A DNA stretch of 64,000 bases from Enterobacteria phage CHB7: the sequence record MK562504.1; one strand, written 5' to 3'. The position numbers and the translations under genes are program-made. This document shows, piece after piece, positions 32,892-42,207 of the stretch. The notes beneath the pieces are model-generated. The model searched no databases. It was not told the origin of the DNA and was given only the letters and a program-made list of their open reading frames with translations. How positions within the stretch are numbered: position 1 is the stretch's first letter; each line of letters begins with the position of its first letter.

Positions 32892-34508
32892 TTAACGTCT
32901 AAGCCCCTCATAAGGATTGCTTCTCACTAAATCAGTGTGAGTACCCATAGAAGGTGGCTTGAATAGTTTTACTTCGTTGAGACTGTTGAAAGCATCGCTT
33001 GTGGCATCCACTTGGTCATCCTTGGTTTTCCCATCCCCACAAAAACCTTCCAGTTCTTGGAAATAGGCTTCGTTCCAGCTACCTCTAACGATTTTTACCA
33101 ATCCTGCTTCAGAAGCAGCAGAGAAACCCGCAAAACGGGTAACTTTATCTTTATTGGTTGGTTTGGCTCTTGCACGATAACCTTTCTCGGCAAGTTTTCT
33201 GATAAGAGATGTTGCGTAGGATTTACCAGCAGCGCCTGGGTCTTGAGGAATAAAGATGCCAGTACGTTTGCCGTCGCTTTCAGCAGTCAAGTTAATTTGT
33301 GTCTCGACTCCAGAAGGTCTATCTCTAAATCTTACTACGTTCATGACATAATAGCAACCATCTTTTTTAGATTTAGCCATTCTAACACCTGCTGTCCAGT
33401 CAGGGTTAGGGTTAACTTCAGACGGTAAAGTAGCCGCTAAGTCCCATGCTCTAACGTCAAATACGTCAGGTGGAACTGAATCAACAATCTCACACCATTG
33501 TCTTTGCCAATAGTTAGAACCTTCTGCACGAGCTTTCCAGTTACCAAATCTCAAACGTGCAACGTTTACTGGAGTGTTGTTTTCCAGCTTACCACGATAC
33601 TTCGGTTCCAAGAAGTCAAGGATTGGGTTATCATCAATCGTACCAGAGATAAAGGTATATGTCTGAGGAATCTCCAGAGGGAACATTTCAAGAATCTTGT
33701 CTCTGTCCCAATCAGATACCATCACGCCATCATTCATTACATACCAACGAATACGACCACATTTCTCAGGGTCTGGATAACCTTCTTCGTCTAAGAATGG
33801 TTCTACCCAATCATAAATGAAGTGGTCTCTGTCTGGGTTCATGGAAATCTTCATGTAAGAGTCACCTTCAGCACCAGAACGCAAACGAGTTTGCAGGTAT
33901 GAAATCTGTGACGCAGAGAAGTGTGTACCTTCGTCAAAGTAAATTGCTGAGTATTCAATACCCTGATGACCTTCAGCGTGTTTTTCAAGTTCTAAGTAGG
34001 TAAACTTGATAGTAGCCCCAGAAGGGAATACGATAGTCATCTTCTGTTCATGTGGAACACCACCGAACTTACCAAAAAGCTTCTTCGCAGCAGGCCATAA
34101 ACCACCTTGTAACTGTGTCGTGTTTCGACGGAAGTATACAGCGTTGTAGTTAGGGTCTTCGATAAATCTGAGTGAATCCATCAGCAAAGCAGCAGTCTTA
34201 CCAGCACCAGCCGCACCACCATATAGAACTAAGTCAGCATTTGTGTTAAGAAATACTTCCTGAGAGCCGGGTTGTGGAGCTACATAGTTCTTATCAGTCA
34301 TAAGTTTGAAGATAAGTCTTACTTGGTCTGGAGTGTATCTTAATAAAGTCAGAATCTGAGTAGGAAGGAATTTAGAGGGGTCTTTACCAAATGACTTGAT
34401 AATATCTTTAACTTCATCAGAAAGCCCCAACTCTCCAGCTAGGACTTTCCTTACATCTTCCACTCGCTTCTGCTTAACAGCATTCAAATCCATTAAGCGC
34501 CTCCGCAA
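32892..34508 (-). CDS. terminase large subunit
   Basis: Walker A LYGGAAGAGKTAAL; 538 aa. Confidence 0.85.
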   Translation of the reverse strand: MRRRLMDLNAVKQKRVEDVRKVLAGELGLSDEVKDIIKSFGKDPSKFLPTQILTLLRYTPDQVRLIFKLMTDKNYVAPQPGSQEVFLNTNADLVLYGGAAGAGKTAALLMDSLRFIEDPNYNAVYFRRNTTQLQGGLWPAAKKLFGKFGGVPHEQKMTIVFPSGATIKFTYLELEKHAEGHQGIEYSAIYFDEGTHFSASQISYLQTRLRSGAEGDSYMKISMNPDRDHFIYDWVEPFLDEEGYPDPEKCGRIRWYVMNDGVMVSDWDRDKILEMFPLEIPQTYTFISGTIDDNPILDFLEPKYRGKLENNTPVNVARLRFGNWKARAEGSNYWQRQWCEIVDSVPPDVFDVRAWDLAATLPSEVNPNPDWTAGVRMAKSKKDGCYYVMNVVRFRDRPSGVETQINLTAESDGKRTGIFIPQDPGAAGKSYATSLIRKLAEKGYRARAKPTNKDKVTRFAGFSAASEAGLVKIVRGSWNEAYFQELEGFCGDGKTKDDQVDATSDAFNSLNEVKLFKPPSMGTHTDLVRSNPYEGLRR

Positions 34509-34514
34509 ATAGAA

Positions 34515-34715
34515 TTATTCGGCAGCAACTTCTTCGGCAGCTTTAACACCAAACTTTGCATCAACTGCATCTAACAGTTCATCCATATTGGTTTCTTTAA
34601 TATCTTTACCAGTTGCATTAGCCAGACGGTGAGCAACACTGATAATAGTGTTCTGCAACAGTTCTGCTCTTTTGTTTGCTTCATAAAGTTCTTTGTAAAC
34701 ATTAGTCTCGTTCAT
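34515..34715 (-). CDS. small hypothetical protein
   Basis: 66 aa ORF upstream of terminase. Confidence 0.4.
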   Translation of the reverse strand: MNETNVYKELYEANKRAELLQNTIISVAHRLANATGKDIKETNMDELLDAVDAKFGVKAAEEVAAE

Positions 34716-34936
34716 TGTATTTCTCCAAAAATAATAAGTGAATGGCTCTCCTGAAAAAAGACGGCGCAGAGACCGTCAAGGAGAAACCACAATGTATGCC
34801 AGAGACATACTGTATAAGTCTTCTTATAAAGTATACATCTGTAAAAAAGCCCTGTCTAAAAATACTCTTCGGTAGCGAAAGGAAGAATACTCGTAGCAGG
34901 GCGTTATTATTTTATTTTGAGAGAGAGTAAAATAAT

Positions 34937-35012
34937 TTGGAGCGTCGAAAGGGAGTTGAACCCTCATAATCCTGTTTTGCAGACAGGTACATAGCCATTT
35001 CTGTCATCGACG
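34937..35012 (-). tRNA. tRNA-Cys (GCA)
   Basis: Hand-folded cloverleaf; loop CUGCAAA; encoded CCA; U73. Confidence 0.7.
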
Positions 35013-35019
35013 CATTAAA

Positions 35020-35113
35020 TTGGAGGAAGATACCAGACTTGAACTGGTACGCCGATTTCTCGGTTACTGACAGTTTAGCAAACTGTTCCCTTACCTTTTA
35101 GGGTTAATCTTCC
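35020..35113 (-). tRNA. tRNA-Ser (GCU), long variable arm
   Basis: Anticodon stem ACAGT/ACTGT, loop TTGCTAA; variable-arm hairpin CCGA-GAAA-TCGG. Confidence 0.7.
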
Positions 35114-35115
35114 AA

Positions 35116-35850
35116 TTATTTGTTCAAGGCATCCTTCATTTCTGGAGTTGCGATTGAATCAATCACACCAGTTTTACAAGCATCATCAAACCAGTCTGGT
35201 AAGACACCTGCAAGGAAACCATTAATATTAGTTTTCAAGTAATCAGCAATTAACGCTGCTTCATCTGCAATCATCTTAGTGACCTCATTAGCATATGCAG
35301 TAATCTTAGCAATGCCCTGATTAATCGCTGTAACGGCTTGTGAGGCTAAGGAAGAGATAGTGTCTAGTCCTTTATCAATTGCATCTTTTAAGTCGCTTAG
35401 AACGCCATTCACAGTGTCTATGGAGGTGTTAATCAAATCCATAGCTTGTTGACCGTACTCTGTAGCTACTCCCATGATTCCACTAAACGGTGTACAACCA
35501 ACTTGCTCTCCTGCTGCACCCATAACGTTAGAGTAACCTTTAGCTACCTGCATACGTGATGAGAACTCATCTACAGATTTCTGACCGTATTGAGTCAGTG
35601 TGTTAGTTGTCGTTGTAGTGCTTCCAAGGCTCGTTGAGAAGCTACTTAACAAGGCTGTAGTCAAACCAGCAGCAATAAGTTTATCTTTTACTGTAGGGTC
35701 TGATACCGAGCTAATAGAGCTTACTAATGAAGTAGAAGCGGCAATTGTGCCACCAAGGATTGCTGCACCAGTAATAAGAGGGTTAGAAAACCCGTTACCG
35801 GATTTCAGGAGATTAAAAATCTCTTTACCTTGTTCTGTCATCTCTTTCAT
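35116..35850 (-). CDS. hypothetical protein
   Basis: 244 aa Ser/Thr/Ala-rich protein inside the tRNA region. Confidence 0.5.
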   Translation of the reverse strand: MKEMTEQGKEIFNLLKSGNGFSNPLITGAAILGGTIAASTSLVSSISSVSDPTVKDKLIAAGLTTALLSSFSTSLGSTTTTTNTLTQYGQKSVDEFSSRMQVAKGYSNVMGAAGEQVGCTPFSGIMGVATEYGQQAMDLINTSIDTVNGVLSDLKDAIDKGLDTISSLASQAVTAINQGIAKITAYANEVTKMIADEAALIADYLKTNINGFLAGVLPDWFDDACKTGVIDSIATPEMKDALNK

Positions 35851-35867
35851 TAAGCACCTTTTGAAAT

Positions 35868-35944
35868 TGGCGGGTTAGTGGGATTTGAACCCTCTTCTCA
35901 TGTTTTTCAGACATGCGCTTTAACCATATAAGCTACTTAACCCA
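35868..35944 (-). tRNA. tRNA-Phe (GAA)
   Basis: Loop CUGAAAA; 3' end ambiguous by about 2 nt. Confidence 0.6.
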
Positions 35945-35951
35945 TTAAATT

Positions 35952-36028
35952 TGGGGTGACCTACGGGAATCGAACCCGTATAGACCATGTTCACAGCATG
36001 GGTCATTATCCATTTATGATAAGGCCAC
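35952..36028 (-). tRNA. tRNA-His (GUG)
   Basis: Loop CUGUGAA; C73; perfect T stem. Confidence 0.65.
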
Positions 36029-36059
36029 ATGTAAGGACTCTCGTAAGAACCCTTAGAAG

Positions 36060-36135
36060 TGGCAGCAGCGTAAGGATTTGAACCTTAATCTTTCAGCTTC
36101 AGAGGCTGGAGCATTGCCAGTTATGCTACACTGCT
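36060..36135 (-). tRNA. tRNA-Gln (CUG)
   Basis: Loop CUCUGAA; G73. Confidence 0.55.
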
Positions 36136-36142
36136 ATTAATT

Positions 36143-36221
36143 TGGTACTCCATATCGGATTCGAACCGATACATAACACAGATTTTAAGTCTGGCCTCTC
36201 TGCCAATTGGAGTAATGGAGC
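36143..36221 (-). tRNA. tRNA with Leu anticodon UAA, standard length (short variable region)
   Basis: Loop CUUAAAA; A73; about 79 nt, no long variable arm. Confidence 0.5.
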
Positions 36222-36223
36222 AT

Positions 36224-36299
36224 TGGCGGGGGATGTTGGAATTGAACCAACTTCTTCGATTTCAAAGACCGAGGTTTTAACCTTGTAAACTAATCCCCT
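36224..36299 (-). tRNA. tRNA-Gln (UUG)
   Basis: Stem TCGGT/ATCGA, loop CUUUGAA; G73. Confidence 0.6.
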
Positions 36300-36307
36300 T
36301 TAAATCT

Positions 36308-36865
36308 TTACTTTCTTAGTGGATGAATAAAGAATGCCAACATAATTCTTTCCCTTGAAAATGCTCTTTCTTCTGGGACAACACTTTTAAGTTTCCAACC
36401 AACATAAATTCTCCAGTAAAATTGTTTACCAAAGATTTTAATTGACGGGATAAAAGCGAATAAACCCCAAGCATTACTGTTCCACATCAGGAGATAACCT
36501 GTCTGATTATCTTCAGGGTTAGAACTTACGTTGATATTACCTTTCCACTTAGTAACATCTTTTACATCTCTTCCTAATACATGGTAAGAGAAGTTATAAG
36601 CTTTGTTTCTCCAGAGCCATCCAACTCTCTGCATATAAACACCGAGCTTACCAATCTTTCGAATCTTAGCCCATCGTTCAACGTGACCTTTGTCACCATC
36701 AATTGGGTTGTCATAAGTTTCCATCCATCTGAATCCAAAAGGTAAGTGACCTTTCTTCTCACTGTAGAATGGAACCACAAATGGTGCTAAGATTACTGCT
36801 AAGATTGCTGCAAATGGCTCTAGCAAAGCTAGGAAAATCCATGAAGCATACTTCAAATATCTCAT
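36308..36865 (-). CDS. membrane protein, hypothetical
   Basis: ATG 36863-36865 with AGAGG RBS; N-terminal hydrophobic segment; track ORF extends upstream from TTG into tRNA-Arg. Confidence 0.5.
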   Translation of the reverse strand: MRYLKYASWIFLALLEPFAAILAVILAPFVVPFYSEKKGHLPFGFRWMETYDNPIDGDKGHVERWAKIRKIGKLGVYMQRVGWLWRNKAYNFSYHVLGRDVKDVTKWKGNINVSSNPEDNQTGYLLMWNSNAWGLFAFIPSIKIFGKQFYWRIYVGWKLKSVVPEERAFSRERIMLAFFIHPLRK

Positions 36866-36885
36866 TTTAAATAGCCTCTTTAAAT

Positions 36886-36962
36886 TGGTGCAGAATAAGG
36901 GATTCGAACCCCTAACAAACAACTTCGTAGGTTGCTGCTCTATCCGTTTGAACTAATTCTGC
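36886..36962 (-). tRNA. tRNA-Arg (ACG)
   Basis: Loop CUACGAA; perfect 7 bp acceptor GCAGAAT/ATTCTGC. Confidence 0.65.
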
Positions 36963-37124
36963 AATGTTCTTTTGAGATTCCTGTCTAGCTCTCTTCTTAT
37001 CTCTTCTGAGAAAGCGTCTACGATGGTCTGTACGCCATTTGTAGTAATCTTCCTCACCAGCGTGAGAAGCACAGCAACCACAACTTGCAATTTCAACTTT
37101 ACCGTGTCTACCATAAGGCTTCAT
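36912..37124 (-). CDS. small basic Cys-containing ORF overlapping tRNA-Arg (doubtful)
   Basis: ATG with AGGAG RBS right after the preceding tRNA; last 51 nt overlap tRNA-Arg. Confidence 0.3.
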   Translation of the reverse strand: MKPYGRHGKVEIASCGCCASHAGEEDYYKWRTDHRRRFLRRDKKRARQESQKNIAELVQTDRAATYEVVC

Positions 37125-37140
37125 AGGAATCTCCTAAAAT

Positions 37141-37218
37141 TGGTGTTCCAAGACGGATTCGAACCGTCACTAATACAAGGTTTGAGCTTGCATCCTCTGC
37201 CAATTGGGATACTGGAAC
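37141..37218 (-). tRNA. tRNA with Leu anticodon CAA, standard length (short variable region)
   Basis: Stem GCAAG/CTTGT, loop CUCAAAC; A73; D-arm similar to the UAA tRNA. Confidence 0.5.
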
Positions 37219-37220
37219 AT

Positions 37221-37295
37221 TGGTACTCGCTGAAGGACTTGAACCTTCTTCACCAACTTGTAAGGATGGGGCTTTACCATATAAACTAAGCGAGT
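37221..37295 (-). tRNA. tRNA-Val (UAC)
   Basis: Loop CUUACAA; A73. Confidence 0.6.
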
Positions 37296-37391
37296 ATGAA
37301 AAGAGGTCTGAAGTTGTGCCGCTAACTCAACTCCGTGGAATTTGTTACGGTCTTCAGTTGACTCAAGCGGTCTTTCACTCGACCTCTGAAA

Positions 37392-37468
37392 TGGTGCTGC
37401 TCACAGGACTCGAACCTGCATTTCCATCCTTACAAGGGATGTGTAATAGCCAATTATACGAAAGCAGC
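37392..37468 (-). tRNA. tRNA-Thr (UGU)
   Basis: Stem CATCC/GGATG, loop CUUGUAA; A73. Confidence 0.65.
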
Positions 37469-37474
37469 ATTGTT

Positions 37475-37549
37475 TGGAGCATCCAGAGGGAATCGAACCC
37501 TCAACCTCAGTTTGGAAGACTGTAATTTTCCCGTTTAAACTATGGATGC
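37475..37549 (-). tRNA. tRNA-Gly (UCC)
   Basis: Loop CUUCCAA; U73; perfect T stem. Confidence 0.65.
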
Positions 37550-37555
37550 ACTAAT

Positions 37556-37631
37556 TGGTGGAGAAGCAGGGAATTGAACCCTGTACTTAAGTTTGCAAAA
37601 CTTATGTTTTAACCATGTAAACTACATCCCC
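37556..37631 (-). tRNA. tRNA-Ala (UGC)
   Basis: Stem TAAGT/ACTTA, loop UUUGCAA; G3-U70 wobble pair; A73. Confidence 0.7.
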
Positions 37632-37637
37632 AATGTT

Positions 37638-37713
37638 TGGTACAGGTGGAGGGAATTGAACCCATCGTCTTACTGATTAAGAGTCAGCCGCATAACCATT
37701 TTGCTACACCTGC
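37638..37713 (-). tRNA. tRNA-Lys (CUU)
   Basis: Loop CUCUUAA; A73. Confidence 0.55.
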
Positions 37714-37720
37714 ATTAATT

Positions 37721-37798
37721 TGGTAGGAGACAAGGGATTCGAACCCTCAAACACCAACTTCTAAGGATGGTAGGTTTACCAATTACCGTCAATCTCCC
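37721..37798 (-). tRNA. tRNA with Leu anticodon UAG, standard length (short variable region)
   Basis: Loop CUUAGAA; A73; about 78 nt. Confidence 0.45.
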
Positions 37799-37866
37799 AT
37801 TAAATCTTTGTAGAGAACTGCTAAGACGCCAAAGCAACAATGGTATCAAATGCCTTAACAATTCTC

Positions 37867-37887
37867 TAAAAAGACCTAACTGGTCTT
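37867..37887 (-). terminator. hairpin downstream of nuclease gene (weak terminator)
   Basis: AAAGACC-loop-GGTCTTT followed by U-rich tail on the minus strand. Confidence 0.35.
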
Positions 37888-38026
37888 TGCATAGTCTTGT
37901 TTAATCCGGTGACTAGAACCTTTGGAGAGCTTGATATTATCTCTTCTCCGTGACACCTACTAGGTGCTTTGTTGTGCGTGTACGACAATACACGAGGGAA
38001 ACCGAACGCTGTACCAGAGCGTGGGC

Positions 38027-38368
38027 TTAAATCTTTAAGCTAAGTTCAGTCTTGGACTTGACATCTTTAGCTTTGTAGATGACGACTTTATCAAGTGGTT
38101 CAATGTAAACAGCTAAGTAATCAACTTGAGAGTTATCAAAATTCATTATTCTATTTTCATTCTTGTTAGAACGAACTCTTTTCAGTTGCACTCTCCAAAG
38201 TTCACCTCTTTTGACTGATGTTGATTTTACCTCAACAGTCTCAATCAAACCATCTTTGTGAACTAGAAAGTCATACTTTGCATTATCTGTAGCTGGTGAA
38301 TACACTTCATAACCTCTTTTGAGGAAAGCTAATTGTGTAGCAATTTCACCTACTGAACCTTTCTTCAT
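38027..38368 (-). CDS. PD-(D/E)XK nuclease-like protein embedded in tRNA cluster
   Basis: ATG 38366-38368 with AAGGTGGTGA RBS; YDFLVHKDGLIETVEVKS resembles a D...ExK nuclease core. Confidence 0.5.
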   Translation of the reverse strand: MKKGSVGEIATQLAFLKRGYEVYSPATDNAKYDFLVHKDGLIETVEVKSTSVKRGELWRVQLKRVRSNKNENRIMNFDNSQVDYLAVYIEPLDKVVIYKAKDVKSKTELSLKI

Positions 38369-38390
38369 AATCACCACCTTAAAATTATTT

Positions 38391-38477
38391 TGGCAGAGAG
38401 TGCAGGAGTTGAACCCGTACCGTTTCCAGCAGCACCAGTTTTCAAGGCTGGTTGGTCTCCGTTGACCGCCACTCTCT
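38391..38477 (-). tRNA. tRNA-Ser (UGA), long variable arm
   Basis: Loop CUUGAAA; perfect acceptor AGAGAGT/ACTCTCT; G73; 87 nt. Confidence 0.65.
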
Positions 38478-38490
38478 CCGAAACAATCTT

Positions 38491-38573
38491 TGGCATGGGA
38501 CGGAGGAATCGAACCCCTTTGAGTAAGTTTTGGAGGCTTACGCACATGCCTTAGTGTCTTAACATCGTCCCAT
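38491..38573 (-). tRNA. tRNA-Trp (CCA), atypical 83 nt with enlarged D region
   Basis: Anticodon hairpin GTAAG-(C)CUCCAAA(A)-CTTAC; perfect acceptor; G73; extra nt between acceptor and D stem. Confidence 0.45.
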
Positions 38574-38715
38574 ATATTATTTCGAAGCTTACCGTATTAT
38601 CACAACACTGTAAAGCCCCTTCTCAGATTATTTACATGTTCTGGAAAACATGAGATACAGACCACCTCCCTACAGGAAGACCCGCTTAGGTCGTCTAAGT
38701 AATCTGCTAACTATT

Positions 38716-38743
38716 TGGTAGCCAAGGTAGGAGTCGAACCTAC
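38716..38743 (-). pseudogene. tRNA 3' fragment (CCA + acceptor + T arm only)
   Basis: TGG-T-AGCCAAG followed by T arm GTAGG-AGTCGAA-CCTAC; no matching 5' acceptor strand found within 100 nt. Confidence 0.4.
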
Positions 38744-38842
38744 TTACTCTCGAAGGTAGCTAACCTTCAGTAACTTTCCGACTTTCGTACATCTGTTAAC
38801 ATGTATTCAGATGGCTTACTAGTGTTGTCTTGACCATTAAAC

Positions 38843-38919
38843 TGGCACACCCTACAGGACTCGAACCTGTAACTCAGTGCTTAGAAGGCACTTGCTCTAT
38901 CCAATTGAACTAAGGGTGC
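38843..38919 (-). tRNA. tRNA-Arg (UCU)
   Basis: Loop CUUCUAA; G73. Confidence 0.65.
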
Positions 38920-39170
38920 ATTCTTATCTTTAAAGGCTCTCTTAGAAAACCCTTAAAGATGCCCACATTATTAATCATACCGTGGGCGAGTACGCCAAAT
39001 TCTTTGATGAGGGGTTGGAAGACCTCACTGGTGTTTAGCCTATTAAGCTACTGCCAGAAAAACATTATCGTTTGCATTTATTTTAGTTTGCAAAAATAGA
39101 CGCTACGCTAACGAAAACTAAGGTTACTATAAAGTGGTCACATCTGAATGTCAACAACTTTATCGAATTT

Positions 39171-39246
39171 GGTAGTGGTAGCAGGAATCGAACCTGCGAT
39201 GTTCGGTTATCAGCCGAGTGTTATGACCGTCTTAACTATACCACCA
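39171..39246 (-). tRNA. tRNA-Ile (GAU)
   Basis: Loop CUGAUAA; A73. Confidence 0.6.
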
Positions 39247-39248
39247 TT

Positions 39249-39325
39249 GGAGGTTCAGATGGGATTCGAACCCACATTCATAGGGCTTATGAAACCCTTG
39301 CATTACCTTATCTGCGACTGAACCA
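39249..39325 (-). tRNA. tRNA with CAU anticodon (Met or Ile2)
   Basis: Stem AGGGT/GCCCT, loop UUCAUAA; U73. Confidence 0.55.
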
Positions 39326-39403
39326 TAATAAGTTGCCCTTTGGAGAAGAACTATTGAGTGGGTGTTTCCAGCCGCGCAGGTGTTCTTCAGTTAAGGGCTA
39401 ATT

Positions 39404-39479
39404 TGGTAGGAGTGGAGGGATTCGAACCCTTCGCCTGTCAGATTAAAAGTCTGCCGCATCACCATTCTGCTACACTCCC
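39404..39479 (-). tRNA. tRNA-Lys (UUU)
   Basis: Loop CUUUUAA; A73. Confidence 0.6.
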
Positions 39480-39735
39480 ATTGAATCATCTTTGCAGTAA
39501 CCTACGCAAACCTTGCTAAAGGGTTTGTAGAGTCATTTCCTATTAAGCTAATCTAGAATCATGCTAAGGAAATTCATCGGCACTCATGGGACGACATTTA
39601 GCTCCATAAGTCACTGCAAAGAGGATTACCAGACCGTTGTTTATCTTAAGTGCTCCCATTACACCAACACGCCGTAACGTGTGAAGGAATCGAACCTTCG
39701 CCTTTTCTTTACCAGAGAAATAGATTGTTTTATAC

Positions 39736-39765
39736 TTGCTGTAAACGGTCTTCTGTAAATTTGTT
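39736..39765. repeat. inter-tRNA spacer repeat (TGCTGTAAACGGTCTTCTG family), copy 1
   Basis: Same about 20 nt word recurs at 40281-40306 and 40440-40466; CCAGACC word recurs near 39639, 39787, 40238, 40395. Confidence 0.6.
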
Positions 39766-39906
39766 GAGCCAGACCAAGTTTTAAATTTTTCAAAATTAAA
39801 TTGGCTTGAAATTTTTTAAGTTGGCTTGCTGAATTTGGTCTTCTGCTCCTTTAAAGAACACTCGTAAGAACTCTTTAAGGGAGGGGCTAAAAAGCCCTCT
39901 CAAATT

Positions 39907-39984
39907 TGGCGGTTACGAAGGGATTCGAACCCTCATCATCTCCCGTGACAGGGGAGTATTTTAACCAGATTAAACTACATAACC
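39907..39984 (-). tRNA. tRNA-Asp (GUC)
   Basis: Perfect stem CTCCC/GGGAG, loop CUGUCAC; G73. Confidence 0.7.
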
Positions 39985-39990
39985 TTTATT

Positions 39991-40078
39991 TGGTGCGCCG
40001 TGAAGGAGTCGAACCTACCGAGTCATAATGACAAGTGATTTACAGTCACCACCGCTTCCATCTACGGGATAACGACGC
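39991..40078 (-). tRNA. tRNA-Tyr (GUA), long variable arm
   Basis: Loop CUGUAAA; 88 nt; A73. Confidence 0.6.
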
Positions 40079-40148
40079 ATTTTATTCCATTCAGGCTAAG
40101 GACTTGCACCTTACAAATCGGTGAGCATTACGCTTCTCTCCCAAATCT

Positions 40149-40225
40149 TGGCGGTGAGTTAGGGATTCGAACCCTATGCCATTCGGTTAACAGCCGACCG
40201 CACATGCCTTATGTGCTTCCTCACC
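40149..40225 (-). tRNA. tRNA-Asn (GUU)
   Basis: Loop CUGUUAA; G73; perfect T stem. Confidence 0.65.
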
Positions 40226-40306
40226 ATGTTTAGTATTGCCAGACCGTATCTTTTCATTTTTCCTATAAAAATTTTTGAGATTGCTGTAAACGGTCTTCTG
40301 CAAATT

Positions 40307-40383
40307 TGGAGGCGGGTGCAGGAGTCGAACCTGCCGATACCATGCTAATGAGACATGTGAGACGCCCTTTCTCTATACCCGCG
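40307..40383 (-). tRNA. tRNA with CAU anticodon, unpaired 1-72 (C-C)
   Basis: Loop CUCAUUA; first acceptor pair is a C-C mismatch; U73. Confidence 0.5.
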
Positions 40384-40466
40384 AACTTTTATGACCAGAC
40401 CAAACTTTTAAGTTTTCTATGCGCGAAAAGTAAAGTTGTTTGCTGTACTTGGTCTTCTGTCAAATT

Positions 40467-40541
40467 TGGAGTCGTAGACGGGATTCGAACCCGCGAGCAA
40501 CTGATTGAAGGTCAGGTGGCTAACCATTTGCCTTCTACGAC
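40467..40541 (-). tRNA. tRNA-Glu (UUC), tentative
   Basis: Stem CTGA/TCAG, loop CCUUCAA (C at position 33 is unusual); perfect acceptor. Confidence 0.45.
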
Positions 40542-40548
40542 ATTAATT

Positions 40549-40625
40549 TGGTCTCCGTTGAAGGGATTGAACCTTCGACCTCACCGCCCCAAACGGCGCA
40601 CTCTACCAAACTGAGCTAAACGGAG
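40549..40625 (-). tRNA. tRNA-Pro (UGG)
   Basis: Loop UUUGGGG; C1-G72; A73; perfect acceptor. Confidence 0.7.
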
Positions 40626-40744
40626 ATAATCTTTTCAAACTCTATGTAACCACTTTAACATTATTTTTTAGTGGTTGTCAAGAACTTTTTTAAAATATTT
40701 TTCAGTATCTTAGAAAAACTCTCGATTTCGTTTCTATGTAGAAC

Positions 40745-40773
40745 ATATTAAAGGGTATCGAGCAGATTGTCAA
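40745..40773 (-). promoter_or_regulatory. sigma70 consensus-like promoter (TTGACA-17-TAATAT) reading into the tRNA cluster
   Basis: Minus-sense TTGACA (40768-40773) and TAATAT (40745-40750), 17 bp spacer inside a GGGTAT/ATACCC palindrome. Confidence 0.6.
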
Positions 40774-40791
40774 TACCCTTTTTAAAACTTT

Positions 40792-42207
40792 TTACCAGAT
40801 GTAACGGTCAATCATTACTGCTTTGAGCATTACGCTGATTGGGTCAAACTTCTCACCACCAAGCAGAGCTTTTAAAGTGGCTGGAGAGAACCCTGATACC
40901 ATTGCTACCCCATTATCCTTAACAGACACTTCGCAAGTACCATTACGGTTTGCTAAGTACCAGAATACCAGTTGTGGCATTTCGTATCCAGCTTTTTCAT
41001 ACTTACTGCGAATTGCTTCGAAGTTTGTATGGCCATCTGCACCGTCAACCTGATTGAACTCCATATCAGAGAAGATAATAAGCTTACTTGGCATTGCTGC
41101 CTGAGTCAAGCCATTTCTTACACCGATTTCAAGAATACGGTCAAATGCTGCTTGCAGGTTTGTTGAACCATACTCAACCTTGTTCATTACCTGACGCATA
41201 CGAGTCTGCAAATCACCACTCAGAGTAATAAAGTGAGGTCTTGTGGAGTAAACCATTAACTCATCTTTAAAGCACCCTGTATTGCGTTCTGAGACGTATA
41301 ACGCCAAAGACAGGCCAATATCAAGAGCAGTTACAGAACCAAATGTCTGCCAAGTCATAGACGCTGATACATCTGACATACACAGAATGTTTTCACCTTC
41401 TGCCATCCAGTTTGGTAATGCTTTCCACTGTTCGTTTGCAACACTTGCTTTACCATGATTAACGGACTTCAGAATATCGTATGGGTACACAGCACCAGCA
41501 TTAATCTTGGCCTCACCTTTGGATAAAGCTTCAACGTAAGCTGCATAACGTTCACCGTCTTTCTTGCTGAACAGCTTTTGATAACGTGCAGCAGCCAGTG
41601 AAGGAATCTTGCTGTAGTCAATCTCACCAAAGTTATTTGTAGAGATTTTCTGTTCAACGGTATCAGACAAAGCTGATAACAGTGTACGGTATTCTTTCTC
41701 ACTCAGGCTTGCAAACTTACAGAAACGTTTTACAAACTGTTTGTGTCGTGGTTTTACTCGTGGTAACCACTTAGCCGCTAAACCTGCTGTATCAGGGTCT
41801 AACAAGGCTGCTTCTAAATGCTTGAAAGCATCTGTCTCATAACGAGTACCTACGAAGATTTTGAAGTCATCGAAACGACCTAATTCAGAAATCTTATCCA
41901 TGATACGAAGAACTTGGAAAGAATCCAGAATGTTATCTTCGATTGCTTGTAAGAGGACAGTTCGGAAAGCTTTACGCTCACCCATACCTTCTCGTACATC
42001 TCGCATATGCAGTAAAATACGAACTGCTACATCAACATCCTCACGCAAAGCTTTGTAGAACAAGTCTGGGAGAATCTCTACATTGCCACGGCTTGAGCCA
42101 GCAGCTTTATAGAAGTCTACCAAGGCAGACATTGATGATGTATGGTTAACAGCACCATTTTCAGTTCGCCCTGCATGGAGGTGCGAATGTTTAAATAAAT
42201 CGCTCAT
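40792..42207 (-). CDS. vWA-domain protein with MIDAS motif (DUF2828/TROVE-like?)
   Basis: 471 aa; DxSxS MIDAS motif in LCMSDVSASM; N-terminal RTENGAV segment; purine-rich RBS. Confidence 0.6.
   Translation of the reverse strand: MSDLFKHSHLHAGRTENGAVNHTSSMSALVDFYKAAGSSRGNVEILPDLFYKALREDVDVAVRILLHMRDVREGMGERKAFRTVLLQAIEDNILDSFQVLRIMDKISELGRFDDFKIFVGTRYETDAFKHLEAALLDPDTAGLAAKWLPRVKPRHKQFVKRFCKFASLSEKEYRTLLSALSDTVEQKISTNNFGEIDYSKIPSLAAARYQKLFSKKDGERYAAYVEALSKGEAKINAGAVYPYDILKSVNHGKASVANEQWKALPNWMAEGENILCMSDVSASMTWQTFGSVTALDIGLSLALYVSERNTGCFKDELMVYSTRPHFITLSGDLQTRMRQVMNKVEYGSTNLQAAFDRILEIGVRNGLTQAAMPSKLIIFSDMEFNQVDGADGHTNFEAIRSKYEKAGYEMPQLVFWYLANRNGTCEVSVKDNGVAMVSGFSPATLKALLGGEKFDPISVMLKAVMIDRYIW

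What the first reader, a model, noticed from the sequence alone, without database searches (positions are those of the whole stretch)
39630..40470. Repeated 70-80 nt spacer modules between tRNA genes
The spacers before several tRNAs carry the same composite element: CCAGACC-N8-TTTT, then about 35 nt later TTGCTGTAAACGGTCTTCTG(C/T)AAATTTGG ending exactly at the tRNA CCA. Copies occur at 39736-39765, 40281-40306 and 40440-40466. In the precursor RNA the GACCG and CGGTC parts can pair. Likely processing or 3'-trailer modules co-duplicated with tRNA genes.
Basis: seen in the sequence. Interest (0 to 1): 0.35.

Follow-up and report, generated by a model that had tools for sequence, protein, structure and literature searches.

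The report
Phage Y-RNA-like genes between tRNAs
The repeated "spacers" between tRNA genes of this Felix-O1-like phage are four small structured RNA genes, one containing a rearranged tRNA-like domain, and they look like the missing RNA partners (Y RNAs) of the Ro60-like protein encoded just upstream.

Summary
The repeat is real, but it lies on the minus strand (the tRNA strand) and has four copies, not three. In RNA sense each copy is 5'-NNNC|AGA|AGACCNN-(N1-3)-(A/U)CAGCAA...NNGGUCU|G|GNNN-3'. That is a 4-bp outer helix, an invariant AGA/G internal loop, a 7-bp inner helix and an ACAGCAA-type motif.

Both helices covary between paralogues and across about 30 Ounavirinae genomes (99.7% paired, 0 of 500 shuffles). 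Three copies are 68-83-nt hairpins. The fourth (133 nt) encloses a stem-loop, a T arm, a covarying 7-bp acceptor-like hairpin and a D arm, which is the domain order of bacterial YrlA Y RNAs.

The gene directly upstream on the same strand (471 aa, DUF2828+DUF7788) folds like Ro60: the top 12 PDB hits are all Ro60/Rsr. Stem-plus-ACAGCAA modules also sit on the coding strand beside DUF2828 genes in nine other phage lineages. Their hosts include Yersinia, Campylobacter, Mycobacterium, Listeria, Staphylococcus, Enterococcus, Ralstonia and Sinorhizobium.

A sister phage lacks the gene at the syntenic site and also lacks the modules.

Best reading: these are Y-RNA-like partners of a divergent Ro60. 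They are co-transcribed with the tRNAs and probably released by tRNA processing. Binding has not been tested. This is a new variant of a known kind.

The parts
40392..40462 (-). Module A, a short Y-like hairpin RNA of 71 nt between tRNA-Glu and tRNA-Met. P1a is UGAC (40462-40459) paired with GUCA (40395-40392). The internal loop is AGA (40458-40456) opposite G (40396). P1b is AGACCAA (40455-40449) paired with UUGGUCU (40403-40397). The ACAGCAA motif is at 40446-40440.
   Evidence: Sequence. The MFE fold gives P1a, the loop and P1b. The module sits at the same site in about 30 genomes. Stem covariation is shown.
40236..40303 (-). Module B, a short Y-like hairpin RNA of 68 nt between tRNA-Met and tRNA-Asn. 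P1a is UUGC (40303-40300) paired with GCAA (40239-40236). The loop is AGA opposite G (40240). P1b is AGACCGU (40296-40290) paired with ACGGUCU (40247-40241). ACAGCAA is at 40287-40281. An inner hairpin is AUUUUU-AUAGG-AAAAAU.
   Evidence: MFE -14.3 kcal/mol, z -2.5. The inner hairpin is kept with a different sequence (CUUUU/AAAAG) in other Felixounaviruses.
39766..39848 (-). Module C1, a short Y-like hairpin RNA of 83 nt downstream of tRNA-Asp and a GC hairpin. P1a is GAGC (39848-39845) paired with GCUC (39769-39766). The loop is AGA opposite G (39770). P1b is AGACCAA (39841-39835) paired with UUGGUCU (39777-39771). The motif UCAGCAA is at 39832-39826.
   Evidence: (family D10). In Mooglevirus P1a changes to GGAGC/GUUCC and stays paired.
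39626..39758 (-). Module C2, a YrlA-like RNA of 133 nt. P1a is UUAC (39758-39755) paired with GUAA (39629-39626). The loop is AGA opposite G (39630). P1b is AGACCGU (39751-39745) paired with ACGGUCU (39637-39631). ACAGCAA is at 39742-39736. It encloses a rearranged tRNA-like domain.
   Evidence: RNAalifold on 14 sequences independently predicts all helices. The pair counts give 97.4% paired cells and 0 of 500 shuffles reaching that value. The Rfam tRNA model matches 39683-39736 only over model positions 9-63.
39704..39720 (-). C2 'V'/anticodon-like stem-loop UUUCU-CUGGUAA-AGAAA.
   Evidence: The loop is not conserved among relatives (CUGGUAA, CCGGUAA, C-GGUAA, CUAUGAA, and a different arm in the Michonne type). 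It is therefore not a decoding anticodon.
39683..39699 (-). C2 T arm GAAGG-UUCGAUU-CCUUC.
   Evidence: Identical in 13 of 14 aligned sequences; one (L138) has a single mismatch in the closing pair. It matches the Rfam tRNA T arm.
39667..39682 (-). C2 acceptor-like hairpin (AS): ACACGUU-AC-GGCGUGU. The 3' acceptor strand comes before the 5' acceptor strand.
   Evidence: Three sequence types all keep pairing: ACACGUU/GGCGUGU, ACUCGGC/GUCGAGU and ACCCUUC/GAAGGGU. Three of the 7 pairs show changes on both sides (helix 4).
39650..39666 (-). C2 U8-G9 followed by the D arm GUGU-AAUGGGA-GCAC.
   Evidence: The stems are invariant and only one loop base varies. It is a canonical tRNA D arm with GG in the loop.
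40792..42207 (-). Gene for a 471-aa Ro60-like protein with an N-terminal helical repeat domain and a C-terminal vWA domain carrying a MIDAS motif. It lies directly upstream of the tRNA/Y-like RNA array on the same strand.
   Evidence: Pfam DUF2828 (6.5e-29) and DUF7788 (6.2e-42). D279, S281 and S283 are invariant. The AF2 model has pLDDT 90. The top 12 Foldseek PDB hits are all Ro60/Rsr/TROVE, with E from 8e-9 to 2e-6 and TM up to 0.66.
40652..40773 (-). Two sigma-70-like promoters between the Ro60-like gene and tRNA-Pro: TTGACA-17-TAATAT at 40773-40745 and TTGACA-18-TAAAGT with a TG extension at 40681-40652. They are the likely start of the tRNA plus Y-like RNA transcript.
   Evidence: No promoter-like site lies on the minus strand inside the modules.
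40467..40541 (-). tRNA-Glu(UUC). ARAGORN missed it. Its CCA is 4 nt upstream of P1a of module A.
   Evidence: Rfam tRNA, 53.7 bits. Annotated as tRNA-Glu in SUSP2 and REP7.

Best explanation
The four modules are genes for small non-coding RNAs of the Y-RNA type. They are transcribed with the phage tRNAs from the two promoters just downstream of the Ro60-like gene. They are probably released by the enzymes that mature the flanking tRNAs, namely cleavage after CCA and RNase P at the next tRNA.

Each RNA closes its 5' and 3' ends into a bipartite stem: P1a, an invariant AGA/G internal loop, then P1b. An (A/U)CAGCAA motif follows. I propose that this stem and motif form the docking site for the adjacent 471-aa Ro60-like protein.

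Three RNAs (A, B, C1) are simple hairpins resembling YrlB or Yrn2. The fourth (C2) carries a tRNA-like domain in the YrlA order: V arm, T arm, closed acceptor stem, D arm.

The resulting RNPs would act in RNA or tRNA surveillance, or in countering host defence, during infection. The tRNA mimic could recruit tRNA-binding factors or act as a decoy for them.

Shown here:
- the repeat;
- the RNA-level, strand-specific structure with covariation;
- the Ro60 fold of the neighbouring protein;
- the co-occurrence of gene and RNA motif across phage lineages;
- their joint absence in a sister phage.

Inferred:
- physical binding between protein and RNAs;
- the processing route;
- the biological role.
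For: 1. Structure. P1a and P1b are paired in 99.7% of cells in 30 distinct stems. Five of 11 pairs have changes on both sides (61 cells), 0 of 500 shuffles reach the observed values, and slid controls give 21-45% pairing. All four RNAs fold into this stem as their MFE structure.

2. C2. RNAalifold predicts the outer stem and the V, T, AS and D helices without guidance. The AS helix exists in three sequence versions that are all paired. G-U pairs (D stem U-G in 14 of 14; AS G-U or U-G in 12 of 14) work only in the minus-strand transcript.

3. Conservation. The four modules sit at fixed sites in about 30 Ounavirinae loci.

4. Protein. MIDAS residues are invariant. The model has pLDDT 90. The top 12 PDB matches are all Ro60, Rsr or phage phiLo Ro60.

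5. Match to the known design. YrlA is described as 5' strand-V-T-AS-D-3' strand, encoded within 4 kb of Ro60 on the same strand and accompanied by hairpin-type Y RNAs. D. radiodurans Y RNAs are co-transcribed with a tRNA (PMC4201824).

6. Other lineages. Stem plus ACAGCAA modules lie beside DUF2828 genes, on the coding strand:
- Yersinia phage P778: 3 modules;
- a 143-kb phage: 5 modules, of which 3 have T arm, AS and D arm;
- Campylobacter NCTC12673: 2 modules;
- mycobacteriophage MiniLon: 3 modules, one YrlA-like;
- Listeria LMTA-57: 3 modules;
- Staphylococcus SEP9: 3 modules;
- Ralstonia RSP15: 2 modules;
- Enterococcus EF5: 1 module;
- Sinorhizobium phiM12: 3 modules by a permissive scan (6-bp stem, [ACT]CAGCAA); 2 meet the stricter criteria.
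A uniform scan of 11 loci gives 29 sense-strand modules, 1 antisense, and a mean of 2.1 (maximum 7) in shuffles.

7. Negative controls. Erwinia phage phiEa104 keeps the DUF5681 gene (60% identity) and the tRNA array. It lacks the Ro60-like gene at that site and has no modules. The phage T5 tRNA array has none.

Against: - No binding, expression or processing data exist for these RNAs.
- The canonical Ro-binding motif GNCGAAN0-1G is absent, and no Rfam family other than a partial tRNA match is found.
- The protein matches no TROVE or Ro60 entry by sequence in Pfam or PDB. Its Ro60 likeness rests on a predicted fold with TM 0.45-0.66.
- Thermodynamic z-scores of the AT-rich hairpins are weak (-0.5 to -2.5).
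- Much of the covariation is between paralogues and between a few clades, so the number of independent events is smaller than the cell counts suggest.
- tRNA genes also accompany DUF2828 genes in most loci. An association with tRNA arrays rather than with the protein is not fully excluded; it is countered only by two control arrays.
- Vibrio phage Va3 shows only the motif in the gene's 5' leader and no clear module.
Confidence: 0.75

Rival explanations
1. The modules are structured RNAs that function independently of the Ro60-like protein. They could be decoys for host tRNA-directed nucleases, processing or stability elements for the polycistronic tRNA transcript, or trans-acting small RNAs. 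On this view their position next to the gene reflects only a shared link with tRNA clusters.
For: The modules are embedded in a tRNA array, and DUF2828 genes sit in or next to tRNA clusters in most sampled lineages. C2 mimics a tRNA. No binding data exist.
Against: The same short motif and stem design persist next to the gene in phages of Gram-negative, Gram-positive, actinobacterial and Campylobacter hosts, and the DUF2828 gene is the only protein gene those loci share. In SEP9, MiniLon and Listeria the modules abut the gene rather than tRNAs. Two tRNA arrays without the gene (phiEa104, T5) have no modules. The motif also appears in the gene's own 5' leader in phiM12 and Va3, as expected for a recognition element of that protein.
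Confidence: 0.12
2. The modules are tRNA 3'-trailer or processing cassettes that were duplicated together with tRNA genes. The pairing only guides RNase cleavage.
For: Modules A and B start 4 nt after a tRNA CCA and end 8-10 nt before the next tRNA. The halves pair.
Against: The flanking tRNAs are unrelated (Glu, Met, Asn, Asp), and C1 and C2 are not flanked by tRNAs. Most tRNA junctions in the same array are 2-10 nt long and have no module. C2 holds a conserved tRNA-like domain of about 90 nt, which is unnecessary for a cleavage guide. Homologous designs occur away from tRNAs in other phages.
Confidence: 0.07
3. The modules are DNA-level elements. They could be inverted-repeat recombination or shuffling cassettes like the T4 PeSL elements, miniature mobile elements, or operator sites for a DNA-binding protein.
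For: The arms are inverted repeats with variable interiors, repeated four times within 0.84 kb. HNH homing endonuclease genes are inserted nearby in some relatives.
Against: The modules sit at fixed positions in about 30 genomes, with four copies recovered wherever the stored locus covers the whole region (two or three in Moogle and Michonne under the strict pattern). No minus-strand promoter lies inside them. The helices contain G-U pairs that are C-A on the other strand. All modules in all lineages share the strand of the neighbouring gene, 29 sense against 1 antisense. The HNH insertions lie outside the modules.
Confidence: 0.04
4. The modules are decaying tRNA pseudogenes, remnants of a tRNA-Thr(GGU) duplication, with no present function.
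For: The array contains other degenerate tRNAs: a pseudo-Tyr at 39988-40076 and a degenerate T arm at 40098-40112. One annotation pipeline called a 131-nt 'tRNA-Thr GGT' over C1/C2 in REP7.
Against: The rearranged order, with positions 27-73 before positions 1-26 and both breakpoints at 26/27, recurs in unrelated lineages with unrelated sequences (L148 three times, MiniLon). Compensatory changes keep AS, P1a and P1b paired. The T and D arms are essentially invariant while the surrounding loops drift.
Confidence: 0.02

Closest known systems
Bacterial and phage YrlA/YrlB Y RNAs with Ro60 (Rsr), as in Salmonella, M. smegmatis and mycobacteriophages (Chen et al. 2014, PMC4201824)
   Same: Several small RNAs are encoded within a few kb of a Ro60-fold protein on the same strand. 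Their 5' and 3' ends form a stem with an internal loop next to a short conserved single-stranded motif. One RNA has a tRNA-like domain in the order V arm, T arm, closed acceptor stem, D arm. The others are long hairpins. As for D. radiodurans Yrn1/Yrn2, they are co-transcribed with a tRNA.
   Different: The protein belongs to a different sequence family (DUF2828+DUF7788, with no TROVE hit). The conserved motif is (A/U)CAGCAA 3' of the inner helix rather than GNCGAAN0-1G. The V element looks like a full anticodon arm. The RNAs are interleaved with a 24-plus-gene tRNA array. No Rfam or published covariance model detects them.
Thermus phage phiLo Ro60 with Yrl1/Yrl2 (PMC12135203; PDB 9KOP, 9L5Y)
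   Same: A phage-encoded Ro60 has two adjacent Y-like RNAs of stem-bulge-stem design. The protein is among the top structural matches. A role in subverting host RNA metabolism or defence has been proposed for it.
   Different: phiLo Ro60 is recognisable as Ro60, its RNAs carry the CGAA motif, and they lie upstream of the gene. Binding and PNPase recruitment were shown there and have not been tested here.
Bas63 (Felixounavirus) gp130 (PhageMaP preprint, 10.1101/2024.10.10.617714)
   Different: That work named no RNA. It suggested that some annotated tRNAs might be Y RNAs. Here the candidates are the unannotated inter-tRNA spacers. Orthology to gp130 is inferred from synteny and was not checked on the Bas63 record.
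Circularly permuted tRNA genes (Cyanidioschyzon merolae and others) and two-piece permuted tmRNA
   Same: In C2 and its analogues the 3' part of a tRNA (positions 27-73) precedes the 5' part (positions 1-26), joined by a short linker at the acceptor end.
   Different: The anticodon loop is not conserved, no CCA is encoded and no bulge-helix-bulge splice motif is present. The termini are held by the Y-type stem. The resemblance to permuted genes comes from my own knowledge and was not tested further.
T4-type PeSL (promoter-early stem-loop) cassettes
   Same: These are short repeated stem-loop modules in a plastic region of a phage genome.
   Different: The modules contain no promoter, have fixed positions, and show strand-specific RNA-level covariation. 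The PeSL comparison comes from my own knowledge.

Membership tests
Bacterial/phage Y RNA (YrlA/YrlB class, Chen et al. 2014) | Encoded within about 4 kb of a Ro60 orthologue and on the same strand | tested here: met
   The modules lie 0.33-1.17 kb downstream of the 471-aa gene on the same strand. The protein is Ro60-like by fold but not by sequence family.
Bacterial/phage Y RNA (YrlA/YrlB class, Chen et al. 2014) | The 5' and 3' ends pair into a stem interrupted by an internal loop or bulge | tested here: met
   P1a (4 bp), an AGA/G loop and P1b (7 bp). Pairing is 99.7%, 5 of 11 pairs covary and 0 of 500 shuffles reach the observed values. This is also the MFE fold of all four modules.
Bacterial/phage Y RNA (YrlA/YrlB class, Chen et al. 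2014) | Conserved GNCGAAN0-1G (CGAA) motif in the 5' strand or bulge | tested here: not met
   The 5' region is NNNCAGAAGACCNN(N)1-3(A/U)CAGCAA and contains no GNCGAA. A different motif, ACAGCAA, is conserved across lineages instead.
Bacterial/phage Y RNA (YrlA/YrlB class, Chen et al. 2014) | At least one RNA has a tRNA-like domain ordered V, T arm, closed acceptor-like stem, D arm | tested here: met
   C2 has this order. The same holds in L148 (three times) and MiniLon.
Bacterial/phage Y RNA (YrlA/YrlB class, Chen et al. 2014) | Bound by the Ro60 protein; carries tRNA-type modifications; cleaved by RNase P when the acceptor stem has 7 bp | not testable with these tools
   This needs RIP or EMSA, modification mapping and RNase P assays.
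Bacterial/phage Y RNA (YrlA/YrlB class, Chen et al. 2014) | Detected by curated RNA family models | tested here: not met
   Rfam 15 at E<=10 on 39560-39900 and E<=1 on 34000-41500 returns only a partial tRNA match (31.3 bits, model positions 9-63) and chance-level hits.
Ro60 / TROVE-vWA protein family (the neighbouring gene) | Sequence match to the TROVE domain or to solved Ro60 proteins | tested here: not met
   Pfam gives DUF2828 and DUF7788 only. phmmer and a 40-sequence profile against PDB sequences find no Ro60.
Ro60 / TROVE-vWA protein family (the neighbouring gene) | Helical-repeat domain followed by a vWA domain, with the overall Ro60 fold | tested here: met
   The AF2 model has pLDDT 90 and pTM 0.89. 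Foldseek ranks 1-12 are all Ro60, Rsr or TROVE structures, with probability 1.00 and TM up to 0.66 over about 530 columns. The next hits are isolated vWA domains.
Ro60 / TROVE-vWA protein family (the neighbouring gene) | MIDAS motif (DxSxS plus T and D) in the vWA domain | tested here: met
   D279, S281, S283, T349 and D381 are invariant in 40 homologues down to 40% identity.
Functional (decoding) tRNA or permuted tRNA gene | Conserved anticodon loop with U33 and a fixed anticodon; encoded or addable CCA at a free 3' acceptor end | tested here: not met
   The loop varies (CUGGUAA, CCGGUAA, C-GGUAA, CUAUGAA) and the arm is replaced in the Michonne type. The acceptor stem is closed by a 2-8-nt linker and no CCA is encoded.
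tRNA 3' trailer / processing spacer | Always attached to a tRNA 3' end, with no structure conserved beyond what cleavage needs | tested here: not met
   C1 and C2 are not attached to tRNAs. A conserved 133-nt multi-helix structure is present. Most junctions in the array have no module.
PeSL-like promoter stem-loop cassette | An early promoter within the repeated unit | tested here: not met
   No sigma-70-like site lies on the minus strand inside 39626-40462. Candidate hexamers are not conserved between copies (sequence).

The most novel reading that the evidence does not exclude
The stem-plus-ACAGCAA RNAs define an unrecognised, phage-wide class of Y RNAs. They would be dedicated to the DUF2828-type Ro60 paralogue, which is present in 709 of 50,697 phage records across phages of Proteobacteria, Campylobacter, Firmicutes and Actinobacteria. 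Their RNPs, some carrying a rearranged tRNA mimic, would be the active anti-defence agents behind the reported gp130-versus-Ppl phenotype. On this reading many 'spacers' in phage tRNA clusters are really Y-RNA genes.
Probability: 0.45. Interest if true: 0.78.

Novelty: new variant of a known kind. Interest (0 to 1): 0.62.

Why it matters
Ro60-Y RNA particles are conserved from bacteria to humans, but their roles in bacteria and phages are poorly understood. A recent screen found that the Felix-O1-type Ro60-like protein counters an anti-phage defence system, but its RNA partners were unknown.

Naming four concrete candidate RNAs gives a recognisable signature: a bipartite stem, an AGA/G loop and an ACAGCAA motif. 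That signature also occurs next to homologous genes in many unrelated phages, which makes the system directly testable by pull-downs, motif mutants and module deletions.

It also suggests a simple rule for finding such RNAs in several hundred phage genomes. It shows that parts of phage 'tRNA clusters', and some calls of pseudo-tRNA or tRNA with intron, are a different class of RNA gene.

Tried and rejected
1. T5-like origin. I first guessed this from the 24 tRNAs. It is wrong: the window is an Ounavirinae (Suspvirus/Felixounavirus-like) genome, 98.8% identical to Salmonella phage PC79-13 over this region.

2. Promoters inside the modules (TTTACA-17-TATAGG in B). The hexamers are not conserved between copies and were not found by the scan.

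3. Terminators. None lie on the minus strand within the modules.

4. Rfam. There are no Y RNA or other family hits, only a partial tRNA match.

5. Sequence searches of the protein against PDB, both single-sequence and profile. They found nothing useful.

6. Literature search for DUF2828. It returned only plant and incidental papers.

7. HNH homing-endonuclease insertions as the cause of the repeats. In mistaenkt the HNH gene lies between tRNA-Asn and tRNA-Asp, outside the modules.

8. The annotated 131-nt 'tRNA-Thr(GGT)' in REP7. This is a mis-parse spanning parts of C1 and C2.

9. A functional split or permuted tRNA-Thr. Rejected because the anticodon loop is not conserved.

10. A first permissive stem and motif scan gave mostly noise. 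It was replaced by a stricter scan with antisense and shuffle controls.

11. The supplementary tables of Chen et al. 2014 listing phages with YrlA are not held. I could not check whether any DUF2828 phage was covered there.
Full report
**Context.** All 24 tRNA genes that ARAGORN finds in the window lie on the minus strand between 34938 and 40625. The region is 98.8% identical to Salmonella phage PC79-13 and 96-97% to Escherichia phages SUSP2 and phiSUSP1. It also matches more than 230 other Felix-O1-like myoviruses of the subfamily Ounavirinae. The finding must therefore be read as reverse complement.

**Observation.**
- The repeat finder returns four copies of the 28-nt unit, not three: 39736-39763, 39826-39853, 40281-40308 and 40440-40467 (family D10).
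- GGTCTGG occurs four times on the minus strand in 39629-40401, once downstream of each unit.
- CAGAAGACCRW with up to one mismatch has 13 matches against 4.2 expected, and four of the five exact ones are here.
- The exact 20-mer CAGAAGACCGTTTACAGCAA occurs in IMG/VR only in 29 stretches, nearly all from contigs of about 87 kb (Ounavirinae size) and a few from shorter fragments.
- The AAAUU after CCA is shared by most tRNAs of the array (family D1), so it is not part of the module.
- Only modules A and B directly follow a tRNA. C1 follows a hairpin after tRNA-Asp, and C2 follows C1.

**Anatomy.** The four modules occupy these minus-strand coordinates: A 40462-40392, B 40303-40236, C1 39848-39766 and C2 39758-39626. 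They share one design:

5'-NNNC | AGA | AGACCNN - N(1-3) - (A/U)CAGCAA ... NNGGUCU | G | GNNN-3'

- The outer helix P1a has 4 bp and differs between paralogues while staying paired: UGAC/GUCA in A, UUGC/GCAA or UUAC/GUAA in B, GAGC/GCUC in C1 (GGAGC/GUUCC in Mooglevirus), and UUAC/GUAA in C2.
- The internal loop, AGA opposite G, is invariant.
- The inner helix P1b has five invariant pairs (AGACC/GGUCU) and two covarying pairs (GU/AC or AA/UU).
- On 30 distinct stems, 99.7% of cells are paired, 5 of 11 pairs show changes on both sides (61 cells), no shuffle out of 500 reaches this, and sliding the partner gives 21-45% pairing.
- RNAfold gives this closing stem as the MFE structure for all four RNAs. 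The z-scores are modest for such AT-rich sequences.
- In about 30 Ounavirinae loci the modules sit at the same sites with similar lengths: A 65-73 nt, B 60-66, C1 73-77 and C2 122-132, measured between the arms. Four copies are recovered wherever the stored locus covers the whole region.
- The interiors drift but keep small inner hairpins. In B, for example, AUUUUU/AAAAAU in some genomes corresponds to CUUUU/AAAAG in others.

**Module C2.** Between the stem strands lie, in order:
- a stem-loop, UUUCU-CUGGUAA-AGAAA;
- a canonical T arm, GAAGG-UUCGAUU-CCUUC;
- a hairpin made of a 3' acceptor strand followed by a 5' acceptor strand, ACACGUU-AC-GGCGUGU;
- U8 and G9;
- a canonical D arm, GUGU-AAUGGGA-GCAC.

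The Rfam tRNA model matches only positions 9-63. RNAalifold on 14 distinct sequences predicts every one of these helices on its own. The acceptor-like helix exists in three versions that are all paired: ACACGUU/GGCGUGU, ACUCGGC/GUCGAGU and ACCCUUC/GAAGGGU. The T and D arms are essentially invariant.

The 'anticodon' loop is not conserved, so this is not a decoder. One pipeline's 131-nt 'tRNA-Thr(GGT)' in phage REP7 is a mis-parse of this region. The G-U pairs in these helices would be C-A on the other strand, so the structure exists only in the minus-strand RNA.

**The neighbouring gene.** Directly upstream on the same strand is a 471-aa ORF (40792-42207). Two strong sigma-70-like promoters separate it from tRNA-Pro.
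- Pfam assigns DUF2828 and DUF7788.
- Sequence searches against PDB find nothing.
- A 40-sequence alignment shows an invariant DxSxS...T...D MIDAS signature.
- The AlphaFold model (pLDDT 90, pTM 0.89) has as its top twelve Foldseek matches only Ro60 proteins: Xenopus and human Ro60, D. radiodurans Rsr and Thermus phage phiLo Ro60. E-values run from 8e-9 to 2e-6 and TM-scores reach 0.66 over the full length. Isolated vWA domains follow.

**Comparison with Y RNAs.** Chen et al. (PMC4201824) describe bacterial and phage Y RNAs with these features:
- They are encoded within 4 kb of Ro60 on the same strand.
- YrlA has a terminal stem enclosing a V stem-loop, a T arm, a closed acceptor-like stem and a D arm.
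- The companion RNAs are long hairpins.
- In D. radiodurans they are co-transcribed with a tRNA.
- In M. smegmatis YrlA a 7-bp acceptor stem allows RNase P cleavage.

C2 has exactly this order, and A, B and C1 match the hairpin type. The canonical motif GNCGAAN0-1G is missing. Here the conserved element is (A/U)CAGCAA just 3' of P1b.

**Test in other lineages.** The protein family occurs in 709 of 50,697 phage records. These include mycobacteriophages, where it is annotated 'Ro-like RNA binding protein'. I examined nine other lineages that carry such modules, plus Vibrio phage Va3.
- Yersinia phage P778: three modules with P1b GGACUGU/ACAGUCC, GGAUUC/GAAUCC and GGACUC/GAGUCC. Each is followed by UUACAGCAA or AUUCAGCAA.
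- A 143-kb phage: five modules with GAAGNN-type stems, all followed by ACAGCAA (one by CCGCAA). Three enclose a T arm, a 7-8-bp acceptor hairpin, UA and a D arm. An unpermuted tRNA-like gene there carries the same hairpin and motif in the anticodon position.
- Campylobacter NCTC12673: two modules.
- Mycobacteriophage MiniLon: three modules, one YrlA-like.
- Listeria LMTA-57: three modules, with an RtcB ligase gene 1.3 kb away.
- Staphylococcus SEP9: three modules.
- Ralstonia RSP15: two modules.
- Enterococcus EF5: one module.
- Sinorhizobium phiM12: three modules by the permissive scan, of which two meet the stricter criteria. One lies in the gene's 5' leader.
- Vibrio Va3: only the motif, 25 nt before the start codon.

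A uniform scan required a stem of at least 7 bp within 0-3 nt of [AU]CAGCAA and a partner strand within 170 nt. On about 7 kb around each of 11 genes it gives 29 sense-strand hits, 1 antisense hit and a mean of 2.1 (maximum 7) in 100 dinucleotide shuffles. A few sense hits fall inside coding sequence and are probably chance.

**Controls.** Erwinia phage phiEa104 belongs to a sister genus. It keeps the upstream DUF5681 gene (60% identity) and a homologous tRNA array. It has no Ro60-like gene at that site or within 14 kb and no module in the array. The phage T5 tRNA array has none either. In the whole 64-kb window the scan finds the four modules plus four scattered hits on 128 kb of strand.

**Mechanism.** This part is inferred. 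The RNAs are made as part of the polycistronic tRNA transcript. They are freed by cleavage after the upstream CCA and by RNase P at the downstream tRNA. They are then bound by the Ro60-like protein through the bipartite stem and ACAGCAA. By analogy with known Ro60 RNPs, the RNA would tether the protein to, or gate its access to, other RNAs or nucleases. The tRNA mimic in C2 may engage tRNA-binding enzymes or host tRNA-directed defences. The recurrent linkage of the gene with tRNA clusters and with RtcB in the Listeria phage points to tRNA-related surveillance or repair.

**Verdict.** The 'trailer co-duplicated with tRNAs' reading is only partly right. The best-supported explanation is a set of Y-RNA-like genes serving a divergent Ro60 (confidence 0.75). 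This is a new variant of a known kind. It differs from described Y RNAs in protein family, recognition motif and genomic setting, and it appears to be widespread in phages.

Noticed in passing
window 39481-39625 (minus strand), between module C2 and tRNA-Lys(UUU): A conserved element of about 145 nt exists in two very different sequence versions of nearly equal length (142-146 nt) among Ounavirinae. RNAalifold gives a terminal stem of about 19 bp with compensatory changes and a 3' hairpin whose loop reads CUUUAGCAAG or CUUAAGCAAG. It has no Rfam hit and may be a fifth non-coding RNA of the same locus.
   Followed up: partly
L148 7563-7692 (143-kb phage, downstream of its DUF2828 gene): An unpermuted tRNA-like gene has an acceptor stem, a D arm, a T arm and a GCCA end. 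In the anticodon position it carries the hairpin AACUUC-UUAGA-GAAGUU followed by UUACAGCA. It looks like a normal-order counterpart of the YrlA-like modules and hints at how they arose.
   Followed up: no
L149 2464-2480 (Vibrio phage Va3) and L153 2896-2930 (Sinorhizobium phage phiM12): The ACAGCAA motif lies in the 5' leader of the DUF2828 gene itself, within a 35-nt hairpin in phiM12. This would fit autoregulation by the protein.
   Followed up: no
window 40467-40541 and 39988-40076 (minus strand): ARAGORN misses tRNA-Glu(UUC), which scores 53.7 bits with the Rfam tRNA model, and a degenerate tRNA-Tyr(GUA) scoring 22.8 bits. A decayed T arm, AAGGTGCAAGTCCTT, lies at 40098-40112 in the Asn-Tyr spacer.
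   Followed up: partly
window 37296-37391 (minus strand), spacer between tRNA-Thr and tRNA-Val: This 96-nt spacer contains CTGAAGACCGT, one mismatch from the module arm. It has no ACAGCAA and no 3' partner, but it has its own long-range pairing AGAGGTC...GACCTCT followed by a U-rich tract (UUUUCAUA).
   Followed up: no
window 39043-39228 (minus strand): The Rfam permuted tmRNA model (RF04321) scores 38.6 bits, below its gathering score of 47. The match overlaps tRNA-Ile and the promoter-bearing spacer downstream of it, and is probably driven by the tRNA part.
   Followed up: no
L124 7278-7300 (Erwinia phage phiEa104, after tRNA-Ala): The sequence TAATGGTCTGGTCAAAT is identical over 10 nt to the 3' arm of module A (GGTCTGGTCA), in a phage that lacks both the modules and the Ro60-like gene. 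It could be a relic of a lost module or a coincidence.
   Followed up: no
L002 6733-7161 and 8965-9417 (phage mistaenkt); also DE7, nataliec and Meda: HNH homing-endonuclease genes are inserted at variable places in the tRNA array of some relatives. In mistaenkt one takes the place of the pseudo-tRNA-Tyr between tRNA-Asn and tRNA-Asp. None disrupts a module.
   Followed up: partly
L152 5308-6455 (Listeria phage LMTA-57): An RtcB-type 'tRNA-splicing ligase' gene lies 1.3 kb downstream of the DUF2828 gene and its three modules. This recalls the rsr-yrlBA-rtcBA operon of Salmonella.
   Followed up: no
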